From contig JBOHZL010000004.1 of assembly GCA_050738495.1 (NCBI GenBank), positions 21,202 to 85,201 of the forward strand: a stretch of DNA of 64,000 bases. Direction: 5' to 3'. This DNA is from Steroidobacteraceae bacterium. GTDB lineage: Bacteria > Pseudomonadota > Gammaproteobacteria > Steroidobacterales > Steroidobacteraceae. Shown here in pieces: positions 6,848-12,334 of the stretch (position 1 is the stretch's first letter; each line of letters starts with the position of its first letter). Under the pieces are notes generated by a model that was given only the letters and a program-made list of their open reading frames with translations, was not told where the DNA came from and did no database searches. A program made the translations under genes and the position numbers.

Positions 6848-7396
6848 CTAGGGCGCCGCTTCGGGAACGGCGCAGCTCTTGCTGTAAAACCCGGACCGAT
6901 CAAAGCAGCAGACGCGCCGTTTTCCGCCGGCGAGCATCTTGCGGGCATTGGCGATCCGTCGCGTGCGAGTCTCCGCCTGCCTGGCGGAGTCGATCCAGAA
7001 GATCCAGTCCCTGCGCGCATTGGGCGTGATGTCCGACCACACCGCCCGTGCCTTCGGGGCGGCCGCGAGCGCCTTTCGCAGGTCCGCCGGTACCCGGGCT
7101 TCCAGTATCTTGACCGCCGGCGCGATCTCGAGCGTGACGATGTCGCCGACCTCGGCGCCCGCGGCTTCGCGGAGTCTCCCGGTCACCTTGAGCCAGTGGC
7201 TCTTCTTGCCGTCCGGCTCGAGCGCCGCTCGAAACGGGACGCCATTGAGAGTGCCTTCCACCGTCGTCATGCCTCGCGATGGCAGCCTCGCGCTCGCGCT
7301 TCTGGGCAGTGCGAGGAATGTCCATGTGGCGGACTTCGGGGTCGCCGGGCGGAGGAGCTTCTTCTTGAAGCGAATCGTGGATGCCGTGTTGGTCAT
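6848..7396 (-). CDS. YdeI/OmpD-associated family protein (DUF1905-type N-terminus)
   Basis: The family resemblance starts at MTNTASTIRFKKKLLRPA...TWTFLALP...VEGTLNGVPF. I prefer the internal ATG at 7396 (AGGAG 6 nt upstream) over the ORF-track start at 7597. Confidence 0.7.
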   Translation of the reverse strand: MTNTASTIRFKKKLLRPATPKSATWTFLALPRSASARLPSRGMTTVEGTLNGVPFRAALEPDGKKSHWLKVTGRLREAAGAEVGDIVTLEIAPAVKILEARVPADLRKALAAAPKARAVWSDITPNARRDWIFWIDSARQAETRTRRIANARKMLAGGKRRVCCFDRSGFYSKSCAVPEAAP

Positions 7397-7644
7397 GCCC
7401 ATCTCCTGCGCATCCTGGCGCCAAGGAACGCCGCGCTGACACCGGGGAGAGACACGATACCGAAAACGATCAGCCCGAGCTGAAACAGACTGCCGATCTC
7501 GCCGGTCCTGATTCCCAACGCGAGGCATTGGCACAGGAACAGCGCGAGCGCCCACCGCCATGGCCGTTCCGCGCTCTGGTAGTCCATCCACCCGCACACG
7601 ACGATGGCGAATGCGTATGGAACGCCAGGGATTGGCTTGTTCAC
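7393..7644 (-). CDS. small hypothetical membrane protein (2-3 predicted TM helices)
   Basis: 83 aa, hydrophobic. Its stop overlaps the ydeI-like start as ATGA, suggesting translational coupling. No family recognised. Confidence 0.5.
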   Translation of the reverse strand: MNKPIPGVPYAFAIVVCGWMDYQSAERPWRWALALFLCQCLALGIRTGEIGSLFQLGLIVFGIVSLPGVSAAFLGARMRRRWA

Positions 7645-7687
7645 CGGTACTCTGCGCCTCTGCGTGCTTGCGGCTTGATCATCGTGA

Positions 7688-8236
7688 TCAAAAACTCGAT
7701 CCCGGGGTCTTCAGGAACTCCGCTTCCTCCGGCGTCGTGCGACGGCCCAAGAGCGCGTTCCTATGTGGATAGCGCCCGAAGCGATCGACGATCGCCTTGT
7801 GGCGGAGTTCGGAGTCGAAGTTCCCAGGCGGCGCGAACTCGCGGAAAAGCACCTCGGCCTGCACGTGGATCAGCCTGGATTCGCTGTGCATGTAGGGCAG
7901 GAGCAGAAATGCCCGCTCGACTGCCGCCAGCACCCGATGCGCGCCCGAAGCGACGGCTTCCTGCGCCAGGGCGAGTGCCATGGCGTCCTGCGCAAAAGCC
8001 TGCGCCGTGTTCCGGCAAACATTTCGTGAGAACTGATCGAGGACGATGATCTCCGCGAGGCGTCCGCGCGCGTCGCTGCGCCAGGCGTACAGCTCCGCGG
8101 CGGCCGCCCGGCGAAGCAGATCGCCGAAGCGTTCGGTCAGTAGCCGGTCAAATTCCGGATCGACTGTCCACCAGGCTACTGGCGCGATTTCCGTGAACCA
8201 GAAGTGGATGATGTTGTCAGGCGTCATTCTGTGCAT
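7688..8236 (-). CDS. DUF924 family protein
   Basis: 182 aa. ...IIHFWF...WW..DPEFD..L..RFG....A..GEL..W....RGRLAEIIVLDQFSRN... and ...RFGRYPHRNALLGR.TTPEE..FL are DUF924 hallmarks. Confidence 0.8.
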   Translation of the reverse strand: MHRMTPDNIIHFWFTEIAPVAWWTVDPEFDRLLTERFGDLLRRAAAAELYAWRSDARGRLAEIIVLDQFSRNVCRNTAQAFAQDAMALALAQEAVASGAHRVLAAVERAFLLLPYMHSESRLIHVQAEVLFREFAPPGNFDSELRHKAIVDRFGRYPHRNALLGRRTTPEEAEFLKTPGSSF

Positions 8237-8330
8237 GCGCGGTTGTCGCGCTTCGCCGCGGTGGCGGTCTGATGCTCCAGTGCCCCTGGTTGTAAGAGCG
8301 AAAGAAGGTGAGTCGCTGCTCGCTGAAACC

Positions 8331-8361
8331 GTTCACGGACTGCTCCAACGCATAGTTGGAT
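8331..8361 (-). repeat. partial attC (R''/L'' half only) closing the BrnTA cassette
   Basis: + strand ccgttcacggactgctccaacg-cata-GTTGGAT, nearly identical to the right halves of the sites at 9424 and 10257. I could not find a matching RYYYAAC/L' half in 8237-8330. Confidence 0.5.
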
Positions 8362-8362
8362 G

Positions 8363-8575
8363 TCACGAAGCCCAATCGAGCTTGAGCTGCTTCTTTTCGG
8401 CCGCGCAATCCCGCAAATACAGGTTAATGAGGTTTTGATAAGGAATGCCGCACTGCTGAGAAAGACTCTTGAAGTACTGGACCGTATCGCTATCAAGTCG
8501 AATCGTGATCTGGCGCTTGGGCTTGCTCAGATACGGATTCGGTACGGACTTGGAAAAATCGTAGCGCTTTCTCAT
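8363..8575 (-). CDS. brnA: BrnA-family antitoxin
   Basis: MRKRYDFSKSVPNPY...ITIRLDSDTVQYFK...GIPYQNLINLYLRDC is the BrnA/CopG-like pattern. The ATG at 8575 forms an ATGA overlap with the brnT stop. The ORF-track start at 8584 is a GTG 3 codons upstream. Confidence 0.85.
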   Translation of the reverse strand: MRKRYDFSKSVPNPYLSKPKRQITIRLDSDTVQYFKSLSQQCGIPYQNLINLYLRDCAAEKKQLKLDWAS

Positions 8576-8781
8576 GGTAGCCACCTGGAGTAATCACGTC
8601 GTTCCGAAGGATCTGCTTTGCGAGCGGAAATGATTCTGATGATGCGCTCCGACTCTCGAAAACTGTGGCAAACCACCAGTAATCGCAGCCGAATGCTCAG
8701 ACCAACAAGAATGTAGCGGTCTTCGCCGATTGAGTCGTCCCGATTCTTACGCTTATCCCACGCGTAGCGTAGGCCATCCAT
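8572..8781 (-). CDS. brnT: BrnT-family (DUF497) toxin, internally shortened (69 aa)
   Basis: Has the N-terminal WDxxKNR and the C-terminal GLSxxLRLLVVCHxxRExxxIRIISARKAxxxERRxY blocks of DUF497. It lacks about 25 residues (the KHGxxFEEA..F.D segment) between them. Confidence 0.75.
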   Translation of the reverse strand: MDGLRYAWDKRKNRDDSIGEDRYILVGLSIRLRLLVVCHSFRESERIIRIISARKADPSERRDYSRWLP

Positions 8782-8815
8782 ACCTACAGTGTAACTACAC
8801 TGTAGTGCATGTCAA
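8782..8815 (-). promoter_or_regulatory. sigma70-like promoter with palindromic operator for brnTA (predicted leaderless)
   Basis: Minus strand reads TTGACA-N16-TACACT-gtaggt-ATG. A perfect 9-bp inverted repeat TACAGTGTA-gt-TACACTGTA (8785-8804) covers the spacer and the -10. Confidence 0.55.
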
Positions 8816-8822
8816 GAGTGAA

Positions 8823-8900
8823 GTCTAACGTTTGACATGAGCGGCGGGCCAAAGGGCGCGAAGCCGCCTTTGGAACGTCCGCTCGATGGAAGGGTTAGGC
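8823..8900 (-). repeat. attC site of the GFA cassette (78 bp)
   Basis: + strand GTCTAAC-gtttg-acatgagcggcg...cgTccgctcGatgg-aagg-GTTAGGC. Inner stem CCAAAGG/CCTTTGG. Unpaired T8878 and G8885 sit in the 3' half of the + strand, as in canonical attC bottom strands. Confidence 0.7.
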
Positions 8901-8908
8901 GTCATCGT

Positions 8909-9268
8909 TCAATCCAAGAACTTCCAAGTATCCGCGCCGTCGAAGCGGCGCACCAGAACGGACTCAAGAAGCTTTGGATCAAAGTTTCTCAAGTTCACGC
9001 CATGGCGGGCCCCTGGTTCCGGCGGCAATGGTTCCCAGTGGGTAACGCATCCGCAAGTGGCGCAGCGAATTGTTCGCAAGGTCTTGTCGCCTTGGATGTA
9101 CTCCTGCGTGTGTTCTGGGTGCCCGGTAACCCGCACTGTGCCAAATTCATAGTAGGCCCAGATTCCGCCAAGGCGTCTGCACATGGAGCAGTTGCAGCTT
9201 GTGGCGTTCTCTGGCGCGGAAGGCAACTCGATCGTGACGGCACCGCAGTGACAGGTCCCTACAGGCAT
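8909..9268 (-). CDS. GFA (glutathione-dependent formaldehyde-activating / CENP-V-like) family protein
   Basis: 119 aa from MPVGTCHCGAV... Cys pattern CHCG...CNCSMC...CATCG is typical of the GFA Zn-binding fold. GAGG sits 8 nt upstream of the ATG at 9268. The ORF-track N-terminal extension runs into the attC site. Confidence 0.8.
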   Translation of the reverse strand: MPVGTCHCGAVTIELPSAPENATSCNCSMCRRLGGIWAYYEFGTVRVTGHPEHTQEYIQGDKTLRTIRCATCGCVTHWEPLPPEPGARHGVNLRNFDPKLLESVLVRRFDGADTWKFLD

Positions 9269-9324
9269 GGAAATGGCCTCGCTGGCTTCTTGATTGGCGC
9301 CGAGCCGCGCTCCGCGATTGTGAC

Positions 9325-9424
9325 GCCTAACGGACGCGTTGAGCGGGCCGCGGTACGCCGTTACTAGGCGCCCGCGGAGCCCACCGCCCAAGCTGTCACG
9401 GACCGCTCCAACGCATAGGTAGGC
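9325..9424 (-). repeat. attC site of the HigBA cassette (100 bp)
   Basis: + strand GCCTAAC-ggacg-cgttgagcgggccgcgg...cacggaccgctccaacg-cata-GGTAGGC. The L boxes pair (cgtt/aacg, gagcgg/ccgctc) with one unpaired C. Confidence 0.7.
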
Positions 9425-9427
9425 AAC

Positions 9428-9727
9428 TCAGGCCGCACGCTTGTCAAAAGCGAGCTCGACTTTCAGGCGACCGCCCAATGCTTGGACTGCGCTTTGAAGC
9501 GTCTGCAATGTGACGGAAGAATTATCCGGATCCAGGAGTCGGTCCAAAGCGGAGCGACTTGTTTCCATGCGCTTCGCCATATCCGACTTGCTCAGCTTGG
9601 CCTGAGCCATCTTTTCGATAAGCCGATATGCGATATAGCGCTTTACGGCAACCGCCGTGGTTTCTTCAAGCAAACCTTCCTCCTTGAGGAAGGAATCAAA
9701 GTCACTACCGATATTTTTCTTACCCAT
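9428..9727 (-). CDS. higA: XRE-family HTH antitoxin (HigA-like)
   Basis: 99 aa with the HTH segment LSKSDMAKRMETSRSALDRLLDP. Lies 2 nt downstream of a RelE/HigB-type toxin gene. Confidence 0.8.
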   Translation of the reverse strand: MGKKNIGSDFDSFLKEEGLLEETTAVAVKRYIAYRLIEKMAQAKLSKSDMAKRMETSRSALDRLLDPDNSSVTLQTLQSAVQALGGRLKVELAFDKRAA

Positions 9728-9729
9728 AT

Positions 9730-10074
9730 TCAGGACCTCAACTTGGCTAATCTACGCCTCGCCAGGGCGAGTTCTCTTGGTGGCGTATTCCAGGACTTCT
9801 TCACGAAACCGTGCAGGAGCACGATCTGATCGTCAAAAATCGTAAAGAACGTACGGGCGATTCCCGTCGAAATATGGGACCGCAGTTCCCACAAGTTCTC
9901 ACTCATTTTCCTAACCAGCGGCATTCCGATAGGCCAACCGAACTGTAATGTCTTTACATCCTCCCCAATTGCTTTGCGCTGCTCCTTTGGGAGATCCTTG
10001 AGCCAATCTCTGACCGGTTCGCCGCCTGAGTCGAGTCGAAAGAAAGCGACTCTGATGGGACGGCTGATGGCCAT
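9730..10074 (-). CDS. higB: RelE/ParE-superfamily toxin (HigB / phage Gp49-like)
   Basis: MAISRPIRVAFF...EPVRDWLKDLP...LWELRSHISTGIARTFFTIFDDQIVLLHGFVKKS is the Gp49/HigB pattern. I use the ATG at 10074, because the ORF-track start at 10101 is a TTG inside the operator. Confidence 0.8.
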   Translation of the reverse strand: MAISRPIRVAFFRLDSGGEPVRDWLKDLPKEQRKAIGEDVKTLQFGWPIGMPLVRKMSENLWELRSHISTGIARTFFTIFDDQIVLLHGFVKKSWNTPPRELALARRRLAKLRS

Positions 10075-10108
10075 TGATGAAGTGTACCATAAATGGTACA
10101 AGCGTCAA
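10075..10108 (-). promoter_or_regulatory. sigma70-like promoter with palindromic operator for higBA (predicted leaderless)
   Basis: Minus strand reads TTGACG-N16-TACACT-tcatca-ATG. A 7-bp inverted repeat TGTACCA-ttta-TGGTACA (10083-10100) overlaps the spacer and -10. Confidence 0.55.
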
Positions 10109-10131
10109 GCGGATTGTGTAAGTCGAGAGTT

Positions 10132-10257
10132 GTCCAACGTTCGCGTTGAGCGGGCCGCGCAGTGCGCGGCCGGCGCGCCGCAGGCGCGAAAATCGTCCGC
10201 GCGCCTGCGGCGCGCTCGCTCGAACTTCTCACGGACCGCTCCAACGCATAGTTAGGC
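10132..10257 (-). repeat. attC site of the DUF5076-like cassette (126 bp)
   Basis: + strand GTCCAAC-gttcg-cgttgagcgggccg...cggaccgctcCaacg-cata-GTTAGGC. Perfect 14-bp inner stem GCGCCGCAGGCGCG/CGCGCCTGCGGCGC. The ORF stop (10261) is 3 nt from the R box. Confidence 0.7.
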
Positions 10258-10260
10258 ATC

Positions 10261-10560
10261 TTAGTGCTCGACCGGCAATCCCCCCTCTATTGAGTCATTG
10301 GGTGAGGCCATCCGACGATTGAACTCCTCAAGCATTGCGCGTTTGCATTCATTCAATGGACGTTCATCGCGTTCTGCGTACATGCGAGACGCGTGCTCGA
10401 AAAAATCGGCCAGGAGCTCGCCAAAGTCCTTGGCTCCGCCCTGCATGTCGCTCGAGATGATCGTGTGCAAGTAACCGTGAGCAACCCACAATCGCATGAT
10501 CTCAAACGCGTCTTCGTCAGTTAAAGCATCGGGAGGGATTTGCAGCGCATTCTTGTGCAT
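10261..10560 (-). CDS. hypothetical cassette protein, possibly DUF5076 family
   Basis: 99 aa, acidic. The pattern ...IPPDALTDEDAFEIMRLWVAHG.LH... resembles DUF5076 from memory. Not verified. Confidence 0.55.
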   Translation of the reverse strand: MHKNALQIPPDALTDEDAFEIMRLWVAHGYLHTIISSDMQGGAKDFGELLADFFEHASRMYAERDERPLNECKRAMLEEFNRRMASPNDSIEGGLPVEH

Positions 10561-10576
10561 GAGATGCTTAATTAGT

Positions 10577-10626
10577 ATTGAACGTCACCAATGACGTGAT
10601 GTTTTACGTCATTCATGCCGCTCAAT
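10577..10626 (-). repeat. candidate short, degenerate attC (or plain hairpin) upstream of the first cassette
   Basis: + strand ATTGAAC-gtcacc-AATGACGT-gatgtttt-ACGTCATT-catgcc-GCTCAAT. The layout is symmetric, but there are no unpaired bases and one box has GCT instead of GTT. Confidence 0.3.
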
Positions 10627-10666
10627 CACCCACCAAGCGCATAAGCGATTGAGTGTGCTGAAAACA

Positions 10667-12334
10667 TTATCGCTGCGACGTCTGCCAGTCGGGCGCCACG
10701 CAATAGCGCACATCGGCCGCTGGCAGGAGCCGCCCACCGCGGATGTGGTCCGCCATTCTCTCGGCCAGCATGATCGTTGGCGCGTTGAGGTTGCCAGTCG
10801 TGATCGACGGCATTACGGACGAATCGACGACGCACAAACTCTCGACGCCGTGAATGCGACCCTCGGAATCCACCACGGCCATCGGGTCGTCCCGGCGTCC
10901 CATCTTGCAGCTGCACGACGGGTGATACGCGCTTTCGACCTTCGTGCGCACGAACGCGTCGATCTGTTCGTCGGTTACAGCGTCCGCACCTGGCTGGATC
11001 TCGCGGCCGCGATAGGGATCGAAGGCGGGCTGCGCGAAGATCTCGCGCGTCAGGCGCACGCAGGCACGCATCTCCGCCATGTCGTCCGGGTGGGTCAGGT
11101 AGTTGAAGAGGGTCTTCGGATGCGCGAGCGGGTCCGGCGAGCCCAGCCGGACGCGGCCGCGGCTCTTCGGGCGCATCGGGCCGACGTGCGCCTGGAAGCC
11201 GTGCTCCTGCGCCAGCGAGGAGCCGTCGTAGGCCACCGCAAGCGGCAGGAAATGAAACTGGATATCCGGATACGGCACTCCCGCGCCGCTTCGGATGAAT
11301 GCGCCGGTCTCGAAATGATTGGTCACGCCGAGGCCATCCTTGAAAAGCAGCCAGCGCGCGCCGATCAACCCACGCGCGAACAGGCCCATCGATGAATAGA
11401 GCGTGACGGGTTGCGTGCAGGCCACCTGGAAATAGAACTCGAGGTGATCCTGCAGATTCTCGCCGACGCCCGGGAGTTCGTGCACGACCGCGATGCCGTG
11501 CTCACGAAGCTCGGCCGCCGGCCCGACGCCGGAGAGCTTCAGGAGCTTCGGCGAATTGATGGATCCGGCGCTGACGATCACCTCGCGTCGCACGCTTGCG
11601 ATCTGCACGGCGTCGCCTCGCCGGTACTCGACGCCGACAGCTCGCCTGCCCTCGAAGAGGATACGCGTCACGAGCGCGCCGGTGCGCACGGCGAGATTCA
11701 GGCGCCGCGCCGCCGGCCGCAGGTAGGCGTTCGCTGCGCTGCAGCGCCGCCCGTCGGGGCTCACCGTCATGTCGAGCCGCCCGAAGCCTTCCTGCTCGCG
11801 GCCATTGAGGTCAGGGTTGTACGGATAGCCCGCCTGACGCCCGGCCTCCAGCCAGGCCGCGTGCAGCGGGTTGGCCAGCGTTCCGTAACGCGTGTGCAAC
11901 GGGCCGGAGTCGCCGCGATACTCGTCGCCGCCCTCGGCGCGCGTCTCCGCGCGGCGGAAGTACGGCAATACGGACGCGTAGTTCCACCCGGCCGCGCCTT
12001 CGGACTCCCAGCGATTGAAGTCCTCGGCGTTGCCGCGCATGTAGACGAGGCCGTTGATCGAGGACGATCCGCCGAGCACCTTGCCGCGTGGCGTGTGCAG
12101 GCGGCGACCGCCGAGTCCGGGTTCTGGCTCGGTGTAGTAGCGCCAGTCGTATTTCTCCATGCCCATCGGGATGGAGAGCGCCGAGGGCATCTGCACGAAA
12201 ATCGAGCGGTCGGAACCGCCGTACTCCAGGAGCAGCACCGTGTGCCGCCCGTCCTCGGTCAGGCGGTCCGCGAGCACGCAGCCCGCGGACCCGGCGCCGA
12301 CGATGACGTAGTCGAATTCCTCAGTAGGGGGCAT
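10667..12334 (-). CDS. betA: choline dehydrogenase (GMC oxidoreductase)
   Basis: 555 aa. [19 protein letters not shown] fold, GMC signatures ([14 protein letters not shown]), 14-nt overlap with betB. Confidence 0.9.

What the first reader, a model, noticed from the sequence alone, without database searches (positions are those of the whole stretch)
8331..10626. Integron-type cassette array with attC sites but no integrase (CALIN), butted against the 3' end of betA
Between the DUF924 gene and betA the sequence turns visibly AT-richer. Every minus-strand ORF or ORF pair there is followed by an imperfect palindrome with attC architecture. Read on the + strand, the full sites are:
- 8823 GTCTAAC-gtttg-acatgagcggcg...cgTccgctcGatgg-aagg-GTTAGGC 8900
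- 9325 GCCTAAC-ggacg-cgttgagcgggccg...cggaccgctcCaacg-cata-GGTAGGC 9424
- 10132 GTCCAAC-gttcg-cgttgagcgggccg...cggaccgctcCaacg-cata-GTTAGGC 10257, which also has a perfect 14-bp inner stem
A half site ...cggactgctccaacg-cata-GTTGGAT ends at 8361. These are RYYYAAC/GTTRRRY R boxes, each 4-5 nt from a pairing L-box. The unpaired bases are T8878 and G8885, plus the extra C in ctcCaacg. All of them lie in the 3' half of the + strand, in the same order as the extrahelical T and G of canonical attC bottom strands. The + strand is therefore the recombinogenic bottom strand, and cassettes read on the minus strand, matching all six ORFs. The contents are typical of sedentary chromosomal integrons: DUF5076-like, HigB/HigA, GFA, BrnT/BrnA. 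Three sites share a 22-nt block. Where attI, Pc and intI should be, there is the stop codon of betA. I see no tyrosine-recombinase-like ORF anywhere in the 64 kb.
Basis: partly seen in the sequence, partly recalled or inferred. Interest (0 to 1): 0.75.

Follow-up and report, generated by a model that had tools for sequence, protein, structure and literature searches.

The report
Integrase-less integron array keeping its attI
It is an ordinary kind of element, made more interesting because related soil bacteria carry many such integrase-less attI-headed arrays.

Summary
Window 8318-10666 is AT-richer than its flanks. It carries four minus-strand cassettes: DUF5076, HigB/HigA, GFA and BrnT/BrnA. 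Each ends in an attC site at the stated coordinates, and the fourth site is truncated.

Two sites (9325-9424 and 10132-10257) belong to a very uniform 126-nt attC family. In Steroidobacteraceae MAGs this family forms cassette arrays next to genuine integron integrases (TIGR02249, about 460 bits). A covariance model built only from those integrase-linked copies hits the two sites at E 2e-16 and 2e-30, plus strand only, and nothing else in the 64 kb.

Site 8823-8900 is a different attC type. It has exactly the geometry of class 1/3 attC bottom strands.

There is no integrase in the window, so it meets the CALIN definition.

The 93 nt between the betA stop and the first cassette are homologous to the attI region of the family's complete integrons, though the crossover GTT is mutated to ATT. 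The element is therefore an integron that lost intI, not cassettes inserted at a random site. It is decaying: mutated attI, a damaged attC, a truncated attC and an internally deleted toxin gene.

Verdict: new member of a known kind. Related genomes hold at least 24 integrase-less attI-headed arrays at several conserved loci, each with a different first cassette. That pattern deserves follow-up.

The parts
10574..10666 (-). Relic attI region (the attI-left side), lying between the betA stop (10667-10669) and the cassette boundary at 10573|10574. It contains the family's conserved blocks CACTTA-like, GTGATT and AATGACGTAAAACATCACGTCATT. Its core reads CAATACTA A|TTAAGC where the family consensus is CAATTGTA G|TTAGGC.
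   Evidence: Aligns with the intI-attI spacer of complete integrons (L028, L071, L049, L029, L084, L035) and with other betA-linked copies. It is 54-67% identical to the intI-linked copies and 61-73% to the other integrase-less copies over the last 70 nt, with the core AATGACGTAA invariant in all 15 sequences and the longer AATGACGTAAAA block nearly so. In complete integrons the IntI ORF starts 122-143 nt upstream of the crossover. Here the betA stop sits at about -98.
10261..10560 (-). Cassette 1 ORF: DUF5076 protein, 99 aa. The cassette spans 10138-10573.
   Evidence: Pfam PF16826, E 5e-24. The start codon lies 7 nt after the TTAAGC cassette boundary.
10132..10257 (+). attC of cassette 1 ('site C'). 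It is a typical 126-nt family member, and the + strand is the bottom strand.
   Evidence: Model R1 scores 134.7 bits, E 2e-30, on + against 64 bits on -. It passes the strict canonical geometry: spacers 6/5 and a 1-nt bulge in the 3' arm. DNA fold -49 kcal/mol, z -5.4.
9730..10101 (-). Cassette 2, gene 1: HigB-like toxin (Gp49/DUF891). The likely start is at 10074. It has its own promoter-like site at 10108-10081, overlapping the palindrome GTACCAT-TT-ATGGTAC.
   Evidence: Pfam PF05973, E 6e-22. Promoter scan. The MAG gene call gives 114 aa. 90% aa homologues occur in arrays L062 and L079, and a 72% homologue in the intI-linked array L098.
9428..9727 (-). Cassette 2, gene 2: HigA-like HTH antitoxin.
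   Evidence: Pfam HTH_37 and HTH_26. Homologues travel with HigB in the same loci.
9325..9424 (+). attC of cassette 2 ('site B'). It is a damaged family member: 100 nt long, with a 26-nt deletion of the inner hairpin, and R'' reads GGTAGGC (GTT changed to GGT).
   Evidence: Model R1 scores 76.9 bits, E 2e-16, on + against 15.9 bits on -. The alignment shows the internal gap. It fails the strict scan only because of GGT.
8909..9268 (-). Cassette 3 ORF: GFA-family protein. The mechanical ORF runs to 9391, but homologues and the Pfam match begin near the ATG at 9268.
   Evidence: Pfam PF04828, E 1e-10. 55-58% aa homologues occur in many arrays, including the first cassette next to intI in L047. 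The cassette's first 6 nt (TTAGGC) are perfectly complementary to its own R'' (GCCTAA), read directly from the sequence.
8823..8900 (+). attC of cassette 3 ('site D'). It is a different, 78-nt attC type with extrahelical T8878 and G8885.
   Evidence: Not hit by the family model R1, and no homologue in the fetched loci. It has exactly the geometry of the canonical class 1/3 attC bottom strands arr-3, aadA2, gcuF, dfrA12, catB3 and blaGES: spacers 6/5 and a bulge in the 3' arm after 2-3 bp. It is one of only two sites in 128 kb of both strands that pass the strict scan, where 0.35 are expected. DNA fold z -3.7.
8572..8781 (-). Cassette 4, gene 1: BrnT toxin remnant, 69 aa. It has an in-frame 84-nt internal deletion, and its own promoter-like site at 8815-8788 with a palindromic operator.
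   Evidence: Pfam PF04365 matches only profile positions 32-77. Alignment with the largely conserved BrnTA cassette of the intI-linked array L029 (BrnA 99% aa identical) shows the 28-codon gap. Promoter scan.
8363..8584 (-). Cassette 4, gene 2: BrnA antitoxin, intact.
   Evidence: Pfam PF14384. 96-99% aa identical copies occur in L029, L095, L097, L045 and L010.
8318..8361 (+). Truncated attC of cassette 4 ('site A'). Only R'' (GTTGGAT), L'' and about 20 nt of the loop remain. The R' end that carries the cleavage point is deleted. This is the distal end of the array.
   Evidence: 85% identical to the matching part of site C. Model R1 gives only 18.9 bits, and only the 3' arm aligns. Homology to the L029 attC stops at about 8318.

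Best explanation
Window 8318-10666 is the remnant of a sedentary chromosomal integron of a Steroidobacteraceae-like gammaproteobacterium.

**What remains.** The recombination platform has lost its integrase gene. The attI region and a four-cassette array survive. They lie in the variable spot between the convergent genes betA and a TonB-dependent receptor, together with a DUF924/YdeI gene block.

**How it was built (inferred from the family).** An IntI recombinase inserted circular cassettes at the attI G|TT crossover. It used the folded bottom (+) strand of each attC. That is why every ORF reads on the minus strand and is followed by its attC.

**How it works now.**
- The locus cannot recombine by itself.
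- The two toxin-antitoxin cassettes carry their own promoters and probably stabilise the array.
- The promoterless DUF5076 and GFA cassettes could only be expressed by transcription coming from betA or the attI region. This is inferred, not shown.
- An IntI supplied in trans could still use the two intact attC sites (10132-10257 and 8823-8900), for instance to excise HigBA+GFA as one circle.
- The mutated attI core (ATT for GTT), the GGT mutation and deletion in attC 9325-9424, the truncated last attC and the deleted BrnT all show that this copy is decaying.

**Shown:** attC identity and strand, attI homology, absence of intI, and the decay lesions. **Inferred:** the history (loss of intI), the expression route, and any residual mobility in trans.
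For: **The attC family belongs to real integrons**
1. A 19-nt core of the window's attC block finds more than 115 tiles in GTDB genomes. Most are Steroidobacteraceae or uncultured Gammaproteobacteria MAGs, with arrays spaced at a median of 753 nt.
2. Eighteen tiles carry an IntI-type recombinase. It always lies on the side and strand predicted if + is the bottom strand.
3. Three of these proteins score 458-463 bits on TIGR02249 'integron integrase' (cut-off 265). One tested by tblastn (L049) is 55% identical to IntI1.

**The window's sites are attCs**
4. Model R1, built from 59 integrase-linked attCs and none from the window, hits 10132-10257 (E 2e-30) and 9325-9424 (E 2e-16). Both hits are on + only, and nothing else in the 64 kb is hit.
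5. Canonical attCs of class 1/3 integrons share one geometry when read on the strand opposite their ORFs. Sites C and D have that geometry on +, and they are the only two such sites in the window.
6. Across the family, an attC's R'' matches the R' half at the far end of the same cassette in 42 of 72 cases. It matches its own R' in 17 of 72, and 18% is expected at random. This is the footprint of G|TT recombination.

**The attI remnant and its context**
7. Window 10574-10666 aligns with the intI-attI spacer of complete integrons, and the cassette boundary coincides with their crossover.
8. At least ten other genomes or contigs have the same betA-attI-array arrangement without intI. More distant relatives have betA followed directly by the receptor gene, which is the empty site.
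9. BrnTA and HigBA cassettes recur in integrase-linked arrays: BrnA is 99% aa identical and the cassette DNA is largely conserved in L029, and HigB/HigA are 72% and 82% aa identical in L098.
Against: - IntegronFinder's own attC model and IntI HMMs could not be run. The family model R1 does not detect site D, whose status rests on geometry alone.
- No relative with intI actually sitting next to betA was found in 80 metagenomic betA loci or in the GTDB tiles. 'Loss of intI in situ' therefore cannot be told apart from a rearrangement that moved attI plus array away from intI.
- Continuity of the window across attC 10132-10257 is not supported by the MAG or the Logan contigs. The true array could be longer, or arranged differently.
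- Whether the source genome encodes an IntI elsewhere is unknown.
- The promoter and read-through statements rest on consensus scans only.
Confidence: 0.85

Rival explanations
1. The cassettes were inserted by a trans-acting IntI at a secondary, non-attI genomic site (attG-type) downstream of betA. More cassettes were then added there.
For: Insertion at secondary sites is one of the origins proposed for CALINs (PMC4889954, read; bioRxiv 10.1101/2022.09.11.507474, listed). There is no intI in the 64 kb.
Against: The 93 nt upstream of the first cassette are homologous to the attI-left region of complete integrons, not to betA-flanking DNA. Empty-site relatives show no such sequence between betA and the receptor gene.
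Confidence: 0.04
2. A chromosomal rearrangement split a complete integron between intI and attI. An inversion or translocation with a breakpoint near the intI start would place attI plus array next to betA and leave an integrase-only In0 element elsewhere.
For: Cury et al. list rearrangement as a CALIN origin. No betA-intI adjacency was found in any relative. Homology to the platform stops at or before the intI start in every integrase-less copy.
Against: At least five different host loci show the same kind of junction: betA, an fhs-like gene (read by eye), a soxG-like gene, a trpG-like gene and others. Their end points are scattered over 26-162 nt. One 815-kb contig has a complete integron with its own attI as well as the betA-linked copy (L071 and L112). 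L102 keeps the position of the intI start codon, now mutated, which looks like erosion in place.
Confidence: 0.1
3. The palindromes are a genome-wide REP/MITE-like repeat unrelated to integrons. Their position after ORFs is coincidental.
For: The 126-nt repeat is highly uniform and multi-copy, with several separate loci per genome.
Against: - Copies occur in one orientation, in arrays with cassette-like spacing.
- Arrays are headed by attI and, in at least 15 loci, by an integron integrase.
- R'/R'' boxes show the cassette-hybrid pattern.
- There are no copies elsewhere in the 64-kb window.
Confidence: 0.01

Closest known systems
[quoted passage not shown] 2016, PMC4889954)
   Same: [quoted passage not shown] The cassettes are of unknown or accessory function, with no resistance genes. 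The size (four cassettes) is typical.
   Different: This one still has a recognisable attI-homologous head, so its origin can be assigned to loss or separation of intI. attI is normally not searchable for chromosomal integrons, and CALINs are defined without it.
Sedentary chromosomal integrons with uniform attC repeats (Vibrio cholerae VCRs; the Xanthomonas ilvD-linked integron, PMC12444791)
   Same: The attC family is species- or family-specific and highly homogeneous, about 126 nt long. Arrays are long and TA cassettes carry their own promoters. Integrase inactivation is frequent. CALINs sit at conserved chromosomal loci across species.
   Different: The host lineage is Steroidobacteraceae, for which the paper library holds no integron description. 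The extrahelical L-box base is C. The integrase-less arrays here start with their own attI copies, and several occur per genome.
Class 1 integron platform (intI1-attI1-cassettes)
   Same: The family IntI is 55% identical to IntI1. The layout is the same: intI divergent from the cassettes and a G|TTRRRY crossover. The attC bottom-strand geometry is also the same.
   Different: The window has no intI, no resistance cassettes, no Tn402 or 3'-CS context, and an unrelated attI sequence.

Membership tests
attC recombination site | Terminal inverted core sites R'' (RYYYAAC) and R' (GTTRRRY) | tested here: met
   Read as bottom strand on +: site D is GTCTAAC...GTTAGGC and site C is GTCCAAC...GTTAGGC. 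Site B is GCCTAAC...GGTAGGC, with one mutation in the R'' triplet. Site A keeps only GTTGGAT.
attC recombination site | Imperfect L'/L'' pairing, with the extrahelical base(s) on the '' arm of the bottom strand and asymmetric spacers | tested here: met
   Sites C and D have spacers 6/5 and a 1-nt bulge in the 3' arm on +. This matches the geometry extracted here from arr-3, aadA2, gcuF, dfrA12, catB3 and blaGES. The bulged base is G in D and C in B and C; dfrA17 also has C.
attC recombination site | Length about 57-141 nt, located at the 3' end of a co-oriented ORF or ORF pair | tested here: met
   Lengths are 78, 100 and 126 nt. Each site begins 3-8 nt after a minus-strand stop codon.
attC recombination site | Significant hit to an attC covariance model | tested here: inconclusive
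   IntegronFinder's attC_4.cm was not available, and Rfam 15 gave no attC match. The home-made model from integrase-linked attCs hits B and C strongly, hits A weakly, and misses D.
attC recombination site | Recombined by an integron integrase as a folded bottom strand | not testable with these tools
   Only indirect support is available: the cassette-hybrid R'/R'' pattern across the family.
CALIN | At least two attC sites clustered (4 kb or less apart), with no intI within the neighbourhood | tested here: met
   Three full sites and one truncated site lie within 2 kb. No IntI-like ORF or fragment occurs in the 64 kb.
Complete integron | An intI gene adjacent to attI and the array | tested here: not met
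   betA's stop codon lies about 98 nt from the crossover, where intI would start at about 125 nt.
attI site of this integron family | Homology to the intI-proximal side of the crossover in complete integrons, with the cassette boundary at G|TTRRRY | tested here: inconclusive
   Homology and position are met. The conserved core is altered: ACTA A|TTAAGC in place of TGTA G|TTAGGC. Function is doubtful and cannot be tested here.
REP / MITE-type dispersed repeat | Copies scattered singly in ordinary intergenic regions, in both orientations, unrelated to cassette boundaries | tested here: not met
   There are no copies outside the array in the window. In relatives, copies are arrayed, co-oriented and linked to attI or intI.

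The most novel reading that the evidence does not exclude
Steroidobacteraceae genomes may run a 'one integrase, many attI' architecture. Besides one complete integron at a conserved locus, they carry several satellite arrays at other conserved loci: downstream of betA, a soxG-like gene and a trpG-like gene, upstream of an fhs-like gene (function read by eye from the sequence), and others. Each satellite is headed by its own copy of the roughly 80-160 nt attI module and has no intI.

Three observations fit attI sites that are kept functional and serviced in trans, rather than dead relics:
- The first cassette differs in every genome at the same locus.
- The attI module is better conserved (61-73% identity among the integrase-less copies) than betA four-fold degenerate sites (54-57%).
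- Homology ends cluster just outside the presumed functional attI.

The window's copy would be one such satellite that has since begun to decay.
Probability: 0.35. Interest if true: 0.65.

Novelty: new member of a known kind. Interest (0 to 1): 0.42.

Why it matters
CALINs are abundant and their origin is debated. Proposals include loss of intI, rearrangement, secondary-site insertion and de novo cassette genesis.

Here the origin of one CALIN can be read directly, because the family's attI sequence could be defined from complete integrons in relatives. This array is an integron head without its integrase.

The same approach uncovers dozens of integrase-less attI-headed arrays at conserved loci in an abundant, mostly uncultured soil and freshwater family. 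If these sites still capture cassettes in trans, the functional unit of a chromosomal integron would be larger than the intI-linked array. Cassette inventories that count only complete integrons would then be underestimates.

For genome annotation, the practical points are these. The six small ORFs are integron cassettes, two of them TA modules and one with a disabled toxin. MAG contigs break at these attC repeats.

Tried and rejected
- **Rfam scan of 7500-11500 at E 10 or less.** Only chance microRNA-type matches appeared, and no attC family matched.
- **Homologues of site D in 119 fetched loci.** None were found, so site D could be validated only by geometry.
- **Integrase search.** A regex and tblastn search of the window and of 80 metagenomic betA loci found no integrase. 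The search for a relative with intI next to betA therefore failed.
- **Flanks of intI in complete integrons.** These flanks are conserved among themselves, but none of those genes is in the window. The complete integron therefore sits at another locus.
- **DUF924-ORF-YdeI as old cassettes.** Intergenic gaps of 0-43 nt leave no room for attCs and the GC content is host-like. They are not treated as cassettes, although YdeI and GFA homologues do occur inside array tiles L067 and L083.
- **A canonical attC covariance model from class 1/3 sites.** This was considered. Too few distinct sites (about 10) were retrieved, and the tool cannot take a hand-made alignment. A rule-based geometric scan with a shuffle control was used instead.
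- **An IntI in the source MAG.** This was not looked for, because the tools give no way to query one genome.

Full report
**1. The observation**

The region is as described. GC drops to 0.49-0.58 between about 8150 and 10700, against 0.63-0.72 on both sides.

Six minus-strand ORFs lie there:
- BrnA and BrnT
- a GFA-family protein
- an HTH_37 (HigA-like) and Gp49 (HigB-like) pair
- a DUF5076 protein

They are flanked by DUF924/YdeI and a TonB-dependent receptor on one side and by betA/betB on the other.

The 22-nt block CACGGACCGCTCCAACGCATAG occurs three times, all on the + strand and only in this region, with none expected by chance. The three full palindromes fold as hairpins with DNA parameters (z -3.7, -2.3 and -5.4). 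The fourth site does not fold, because half of it is missing. Rfam 15 contains nothing that matches.

**2. Are they attC sites?**

I scanned GTDB genomes with a 19-nt core of the block and retrieved more than 115 tiles. Almost all are Steroidobacteraceae or 'uncultured Gammaproteobacteria' MAGs. Many contain runs of 3-9 co-oriented copies.

Of 184 copies extracted, 150 are exactly 126 nt long. The median start-to-start spacing is 753 nt.

Eighteen tiles encode a tyrosine recombinase with the IntI-type motif [24 protein letters not shown]. Three representatives score 458-463 bits on TIGR02249 'integron integrase' (cut-off 265). One of them, tested by tblastn, is 55% identical to IntI1. In every case the integrase lies on the side and strand predicted if the pattern strand is the attC bottom strand.

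I built a covariance model from 59 attCs in integrase-linked tiles, none from the window, and searched the window with it:

| Site | Strand | Bits | E-value | Opposite strand |
|---|---|---|---|---|
| 10132-10257 | + | 134.7 | 2e-30 | 64 bits |
| 9325-9424 | + | 76.9 | 2e-16 | 16 bits |
| 8250-8361 (3' arm only) | + | 18.9 | 0.014 | no match |

Nothing else in the 64 kb reaches significance. Site 8823-8900 is missed by this model and has no homologue in the fetched loci.

To judge that site independently, I extracted canonical attCs from class 1 and class 3 integrons on plasmids: arr-3, aadA2, gcuF, dfrA12, dfrA17, aadA5, catB3 and blaGES. Read on the strand opposite their genes, they share one geometry:
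- R box
- 5-6 nt spacer
- L box with a single bulged base on the 3' arm after 2-3 bp
- 5-nt spacer
- R box

Site 8823-8900 has exactly this geometry (6/5, bulged G). Site 10132-10257 does too (6/5, bulged C, as in dfrA17). A strict scan for this geometry over both strands of the window finds only these two sites, both on +, where shuffles give 0.35. Site 9325-9424 fails only because its R'' reads GGT instead of GTT. It also lacks 26 nt of the inner hairpin.

Across the family, the R'' box of an attC matches the R' half at the far end of the same cassette in 42 of 72 cases. It matches its own R' in 17 of 72, and 18% is expected at random. This is the classical footprint of recombination at G|TT. 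In the window, the GFA cassette shows a perfect match.

**3.

Four GTDB genomes (L112 with L093, L110, L102 and L073) and six metagenomic contigs (L127, L131, L137, L138, L139 and L141) also have co-oriented arrays starting about 90-170 nt after the betA stop.

In all of them, and in the window, the spacer carries a conserved module ending in ...AATGACGTAAAACAnnACGTCA...CAATTGTA G|TTAGGC. The same module lies between intI and the first cassette in the complete integrons. There the IntI ORF starts 122-143 nt from the crossover.

The window reads GAATGACGTAAAACATCACGTCATTGGTGACGTTCAATACTA A|TTAAGC, followed 5 nt later by the DUF5076 start codon. Window 10574-10666 is therefore a relic attI, and betA's stop sits at about -98, where the intI leader would be.

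Locus L102 keeps homology out to about -175, including the (mutated) position of the intI start codon. This looks like erosion of intI in place.

More distant relatives (L135/L136, L142 and L202) have betA followed within 17-70 nt by the convergent receptor gene. That is the empty site.

No relative has intI next to betA. The complete integrons sit at a different conserved locus whose flanking genes are absent from the window.

**4. State of this copy**

Several lesions indicate decay:
- The attI core is mutated (GTT to ATT, TGTA to ACTA).
- attC 9325-9424 has a mutated R'' and an internal deletion.
- The last attC is cut after about 44 nt and lacks the R' box where cleavage occurs.
- BrnT has an in-frame 84-nt deletion relative to the BrnTA cassette of the integrase-linked array L029, whose DNA is otherwise largely conserved and whose BrnA is 99% aa identical. 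BrnA itself is intact.

Only the two TA cassettes have promoter-like sites, each overlapping a palindrome. DUF5076 and GFA would depend on transcription entering from betA or the attI region. That is inference.

With an IntI supplied in trans, the two intact attCs could still recombine. The BrnTA cassette is fixed.

**5. Caveat on assembly**

The NCBI MAG that contains this sequence (GCA_975305635.1) has one contig ending at window 10214 and another starting at 10230. Logan contigs break at 10231 and 8393.

Both halves are independently anchored. One holds betA-attI-DUF5076. The other holds HigBA through to the receptor gene. betA and the receptor are neighbours in relatives. Even so, the number and order of cassettes across attC 10132-10257 depend on the assembler.

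**6. Beyond the window**

The attI module occurs in at least 40 fetched loci, and at least 24 of them have no IntI within 1.5 kb. These integrase-less copies fall at several distinct conserved loci; the gene functions below are my reading of the translated ORFs, not database hits:
- downstream of betA
- upstream of an fhs-like gene (eight genomes)
- downstream of a soxG-like gene
- downstream of a trpG-like gene
- others

Several occur per genome. One 815-kb contig carries both an intI-linked attI (L071) and the betA-linked one (L112).

Three further points stand out:
- Homology to the platform always stops 26-162 nt from the crossover, most often at about 80-90 nt.
- First cassettes differ in every genome at the same locus.
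- The module is better conserved (61-73% among the integrase-less copies) than betA four-fold degenerate sites (54-57%, against a composition baseline of about 39%).

This pattern suggests the satellite attI sites are, or long were, used in trans. It is recorded as the novel case, not as a conclusion.

**7. Comparison with what is known**

The element meets the operational definition of a CALIN (Cury et al. 2016, PMC4889954). It resembles the conserved-locus CALINs and decaying integron platforms described in Xanthomonas (PMC12444791).

It is not a complete integron. I found no paper on integrons of Steroidobacteraceae in the library.

Verdict: a new member of a known kind.

Noticed in passing
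L007, L016, L017, L020, L021, L024, L027, L031, L051, L076, L078, L099, L103, L106, L119 and others (attI crossover coordinates are): Copies of the integron attI module without any adjacent integrase occur at several different conserved host loci. Examples are upstream of an fhs-like gene and downstream of soxG-like and trpG-like genes (functions read by eye from the translated ORFs). Several occur per genome, and each has a different first cassette.
   Followed up: partly
window 10214-10230 and 8393; L001-L004: The public MAG (GCA_975305635.1) and a Logan assembly of SRR27067760 both break their contigs inside or next to the attC repeats. These arrays fragment short-read assemblies, and cassette order across them is uncertain.
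   Followed up: yes
L009, L014, L023 and others ('Nitrospira' bin JBJACV01); L006, L010 and L079-L081 ('Hyphomicrobiaceae' bin JANNRP01); L028 and L062 ('Burkholderiaceae'); L083 ('Gemmatimonadaceae'); L048 ('Dehalococcoidia'); L097 ('Rhizobiaceae'): Short contigs (1.4-11 kb) carrying the same 126-nt attC family, and even its integrase, are binned into unrelated phyla. They are most likely mis-binned integron fragments. Cross-phylum spread of cassettes is the alternative.
   Followed up: no
window 6848-8236: The DUF924, small-ORF and YdeI (DUF1905+OmdA) block lies between the array and the receptor gene. It is absent from relatives in which betA and the receptor are adjacent. YdeI and GFA homologues also occur inside attC-array tiles L067 and L083. 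The block has host-like GC and no room for attCs.
   Followed up: partly
L131:4515-4760: In one metagenomic relative, the betA-linked type-2 attI is fused directly to the R'' end of a complete 126-nt attC (…CATTTAGTCCCC|GCGTAAC TATGCGTTGGAGCGG…). The normal GTAG|TTAG core is missing. This junction was not made by standard G|TT recombination.
   Followed up: no
window 10074-10108 and 8782-8815: Both TA cassettes have a TTGAC(A/G)-16-TACACT promoter-like site overlapping a perfect or near-perfect palindrome: GTACCAT-TT-ATGGTAC, and CACTACAGTGTAGTTACACTGTAG. The HigB start codon lies only about 7 nt after the -10 element, which suggests a leaderless or very short-leader mRNA.
   Followed up: no
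L018: 164-1097 nt upstream of its attI crossover (rc coordinate 5337): The IntI match next to this attI is split into three overlapping tblastn pieces at 36-78% identity. It also lacks the catalytic-region motif used. It may be an intI pseudogene, an intermediate stage between a complete integron and an integrase-less attI.
   Followed up: no
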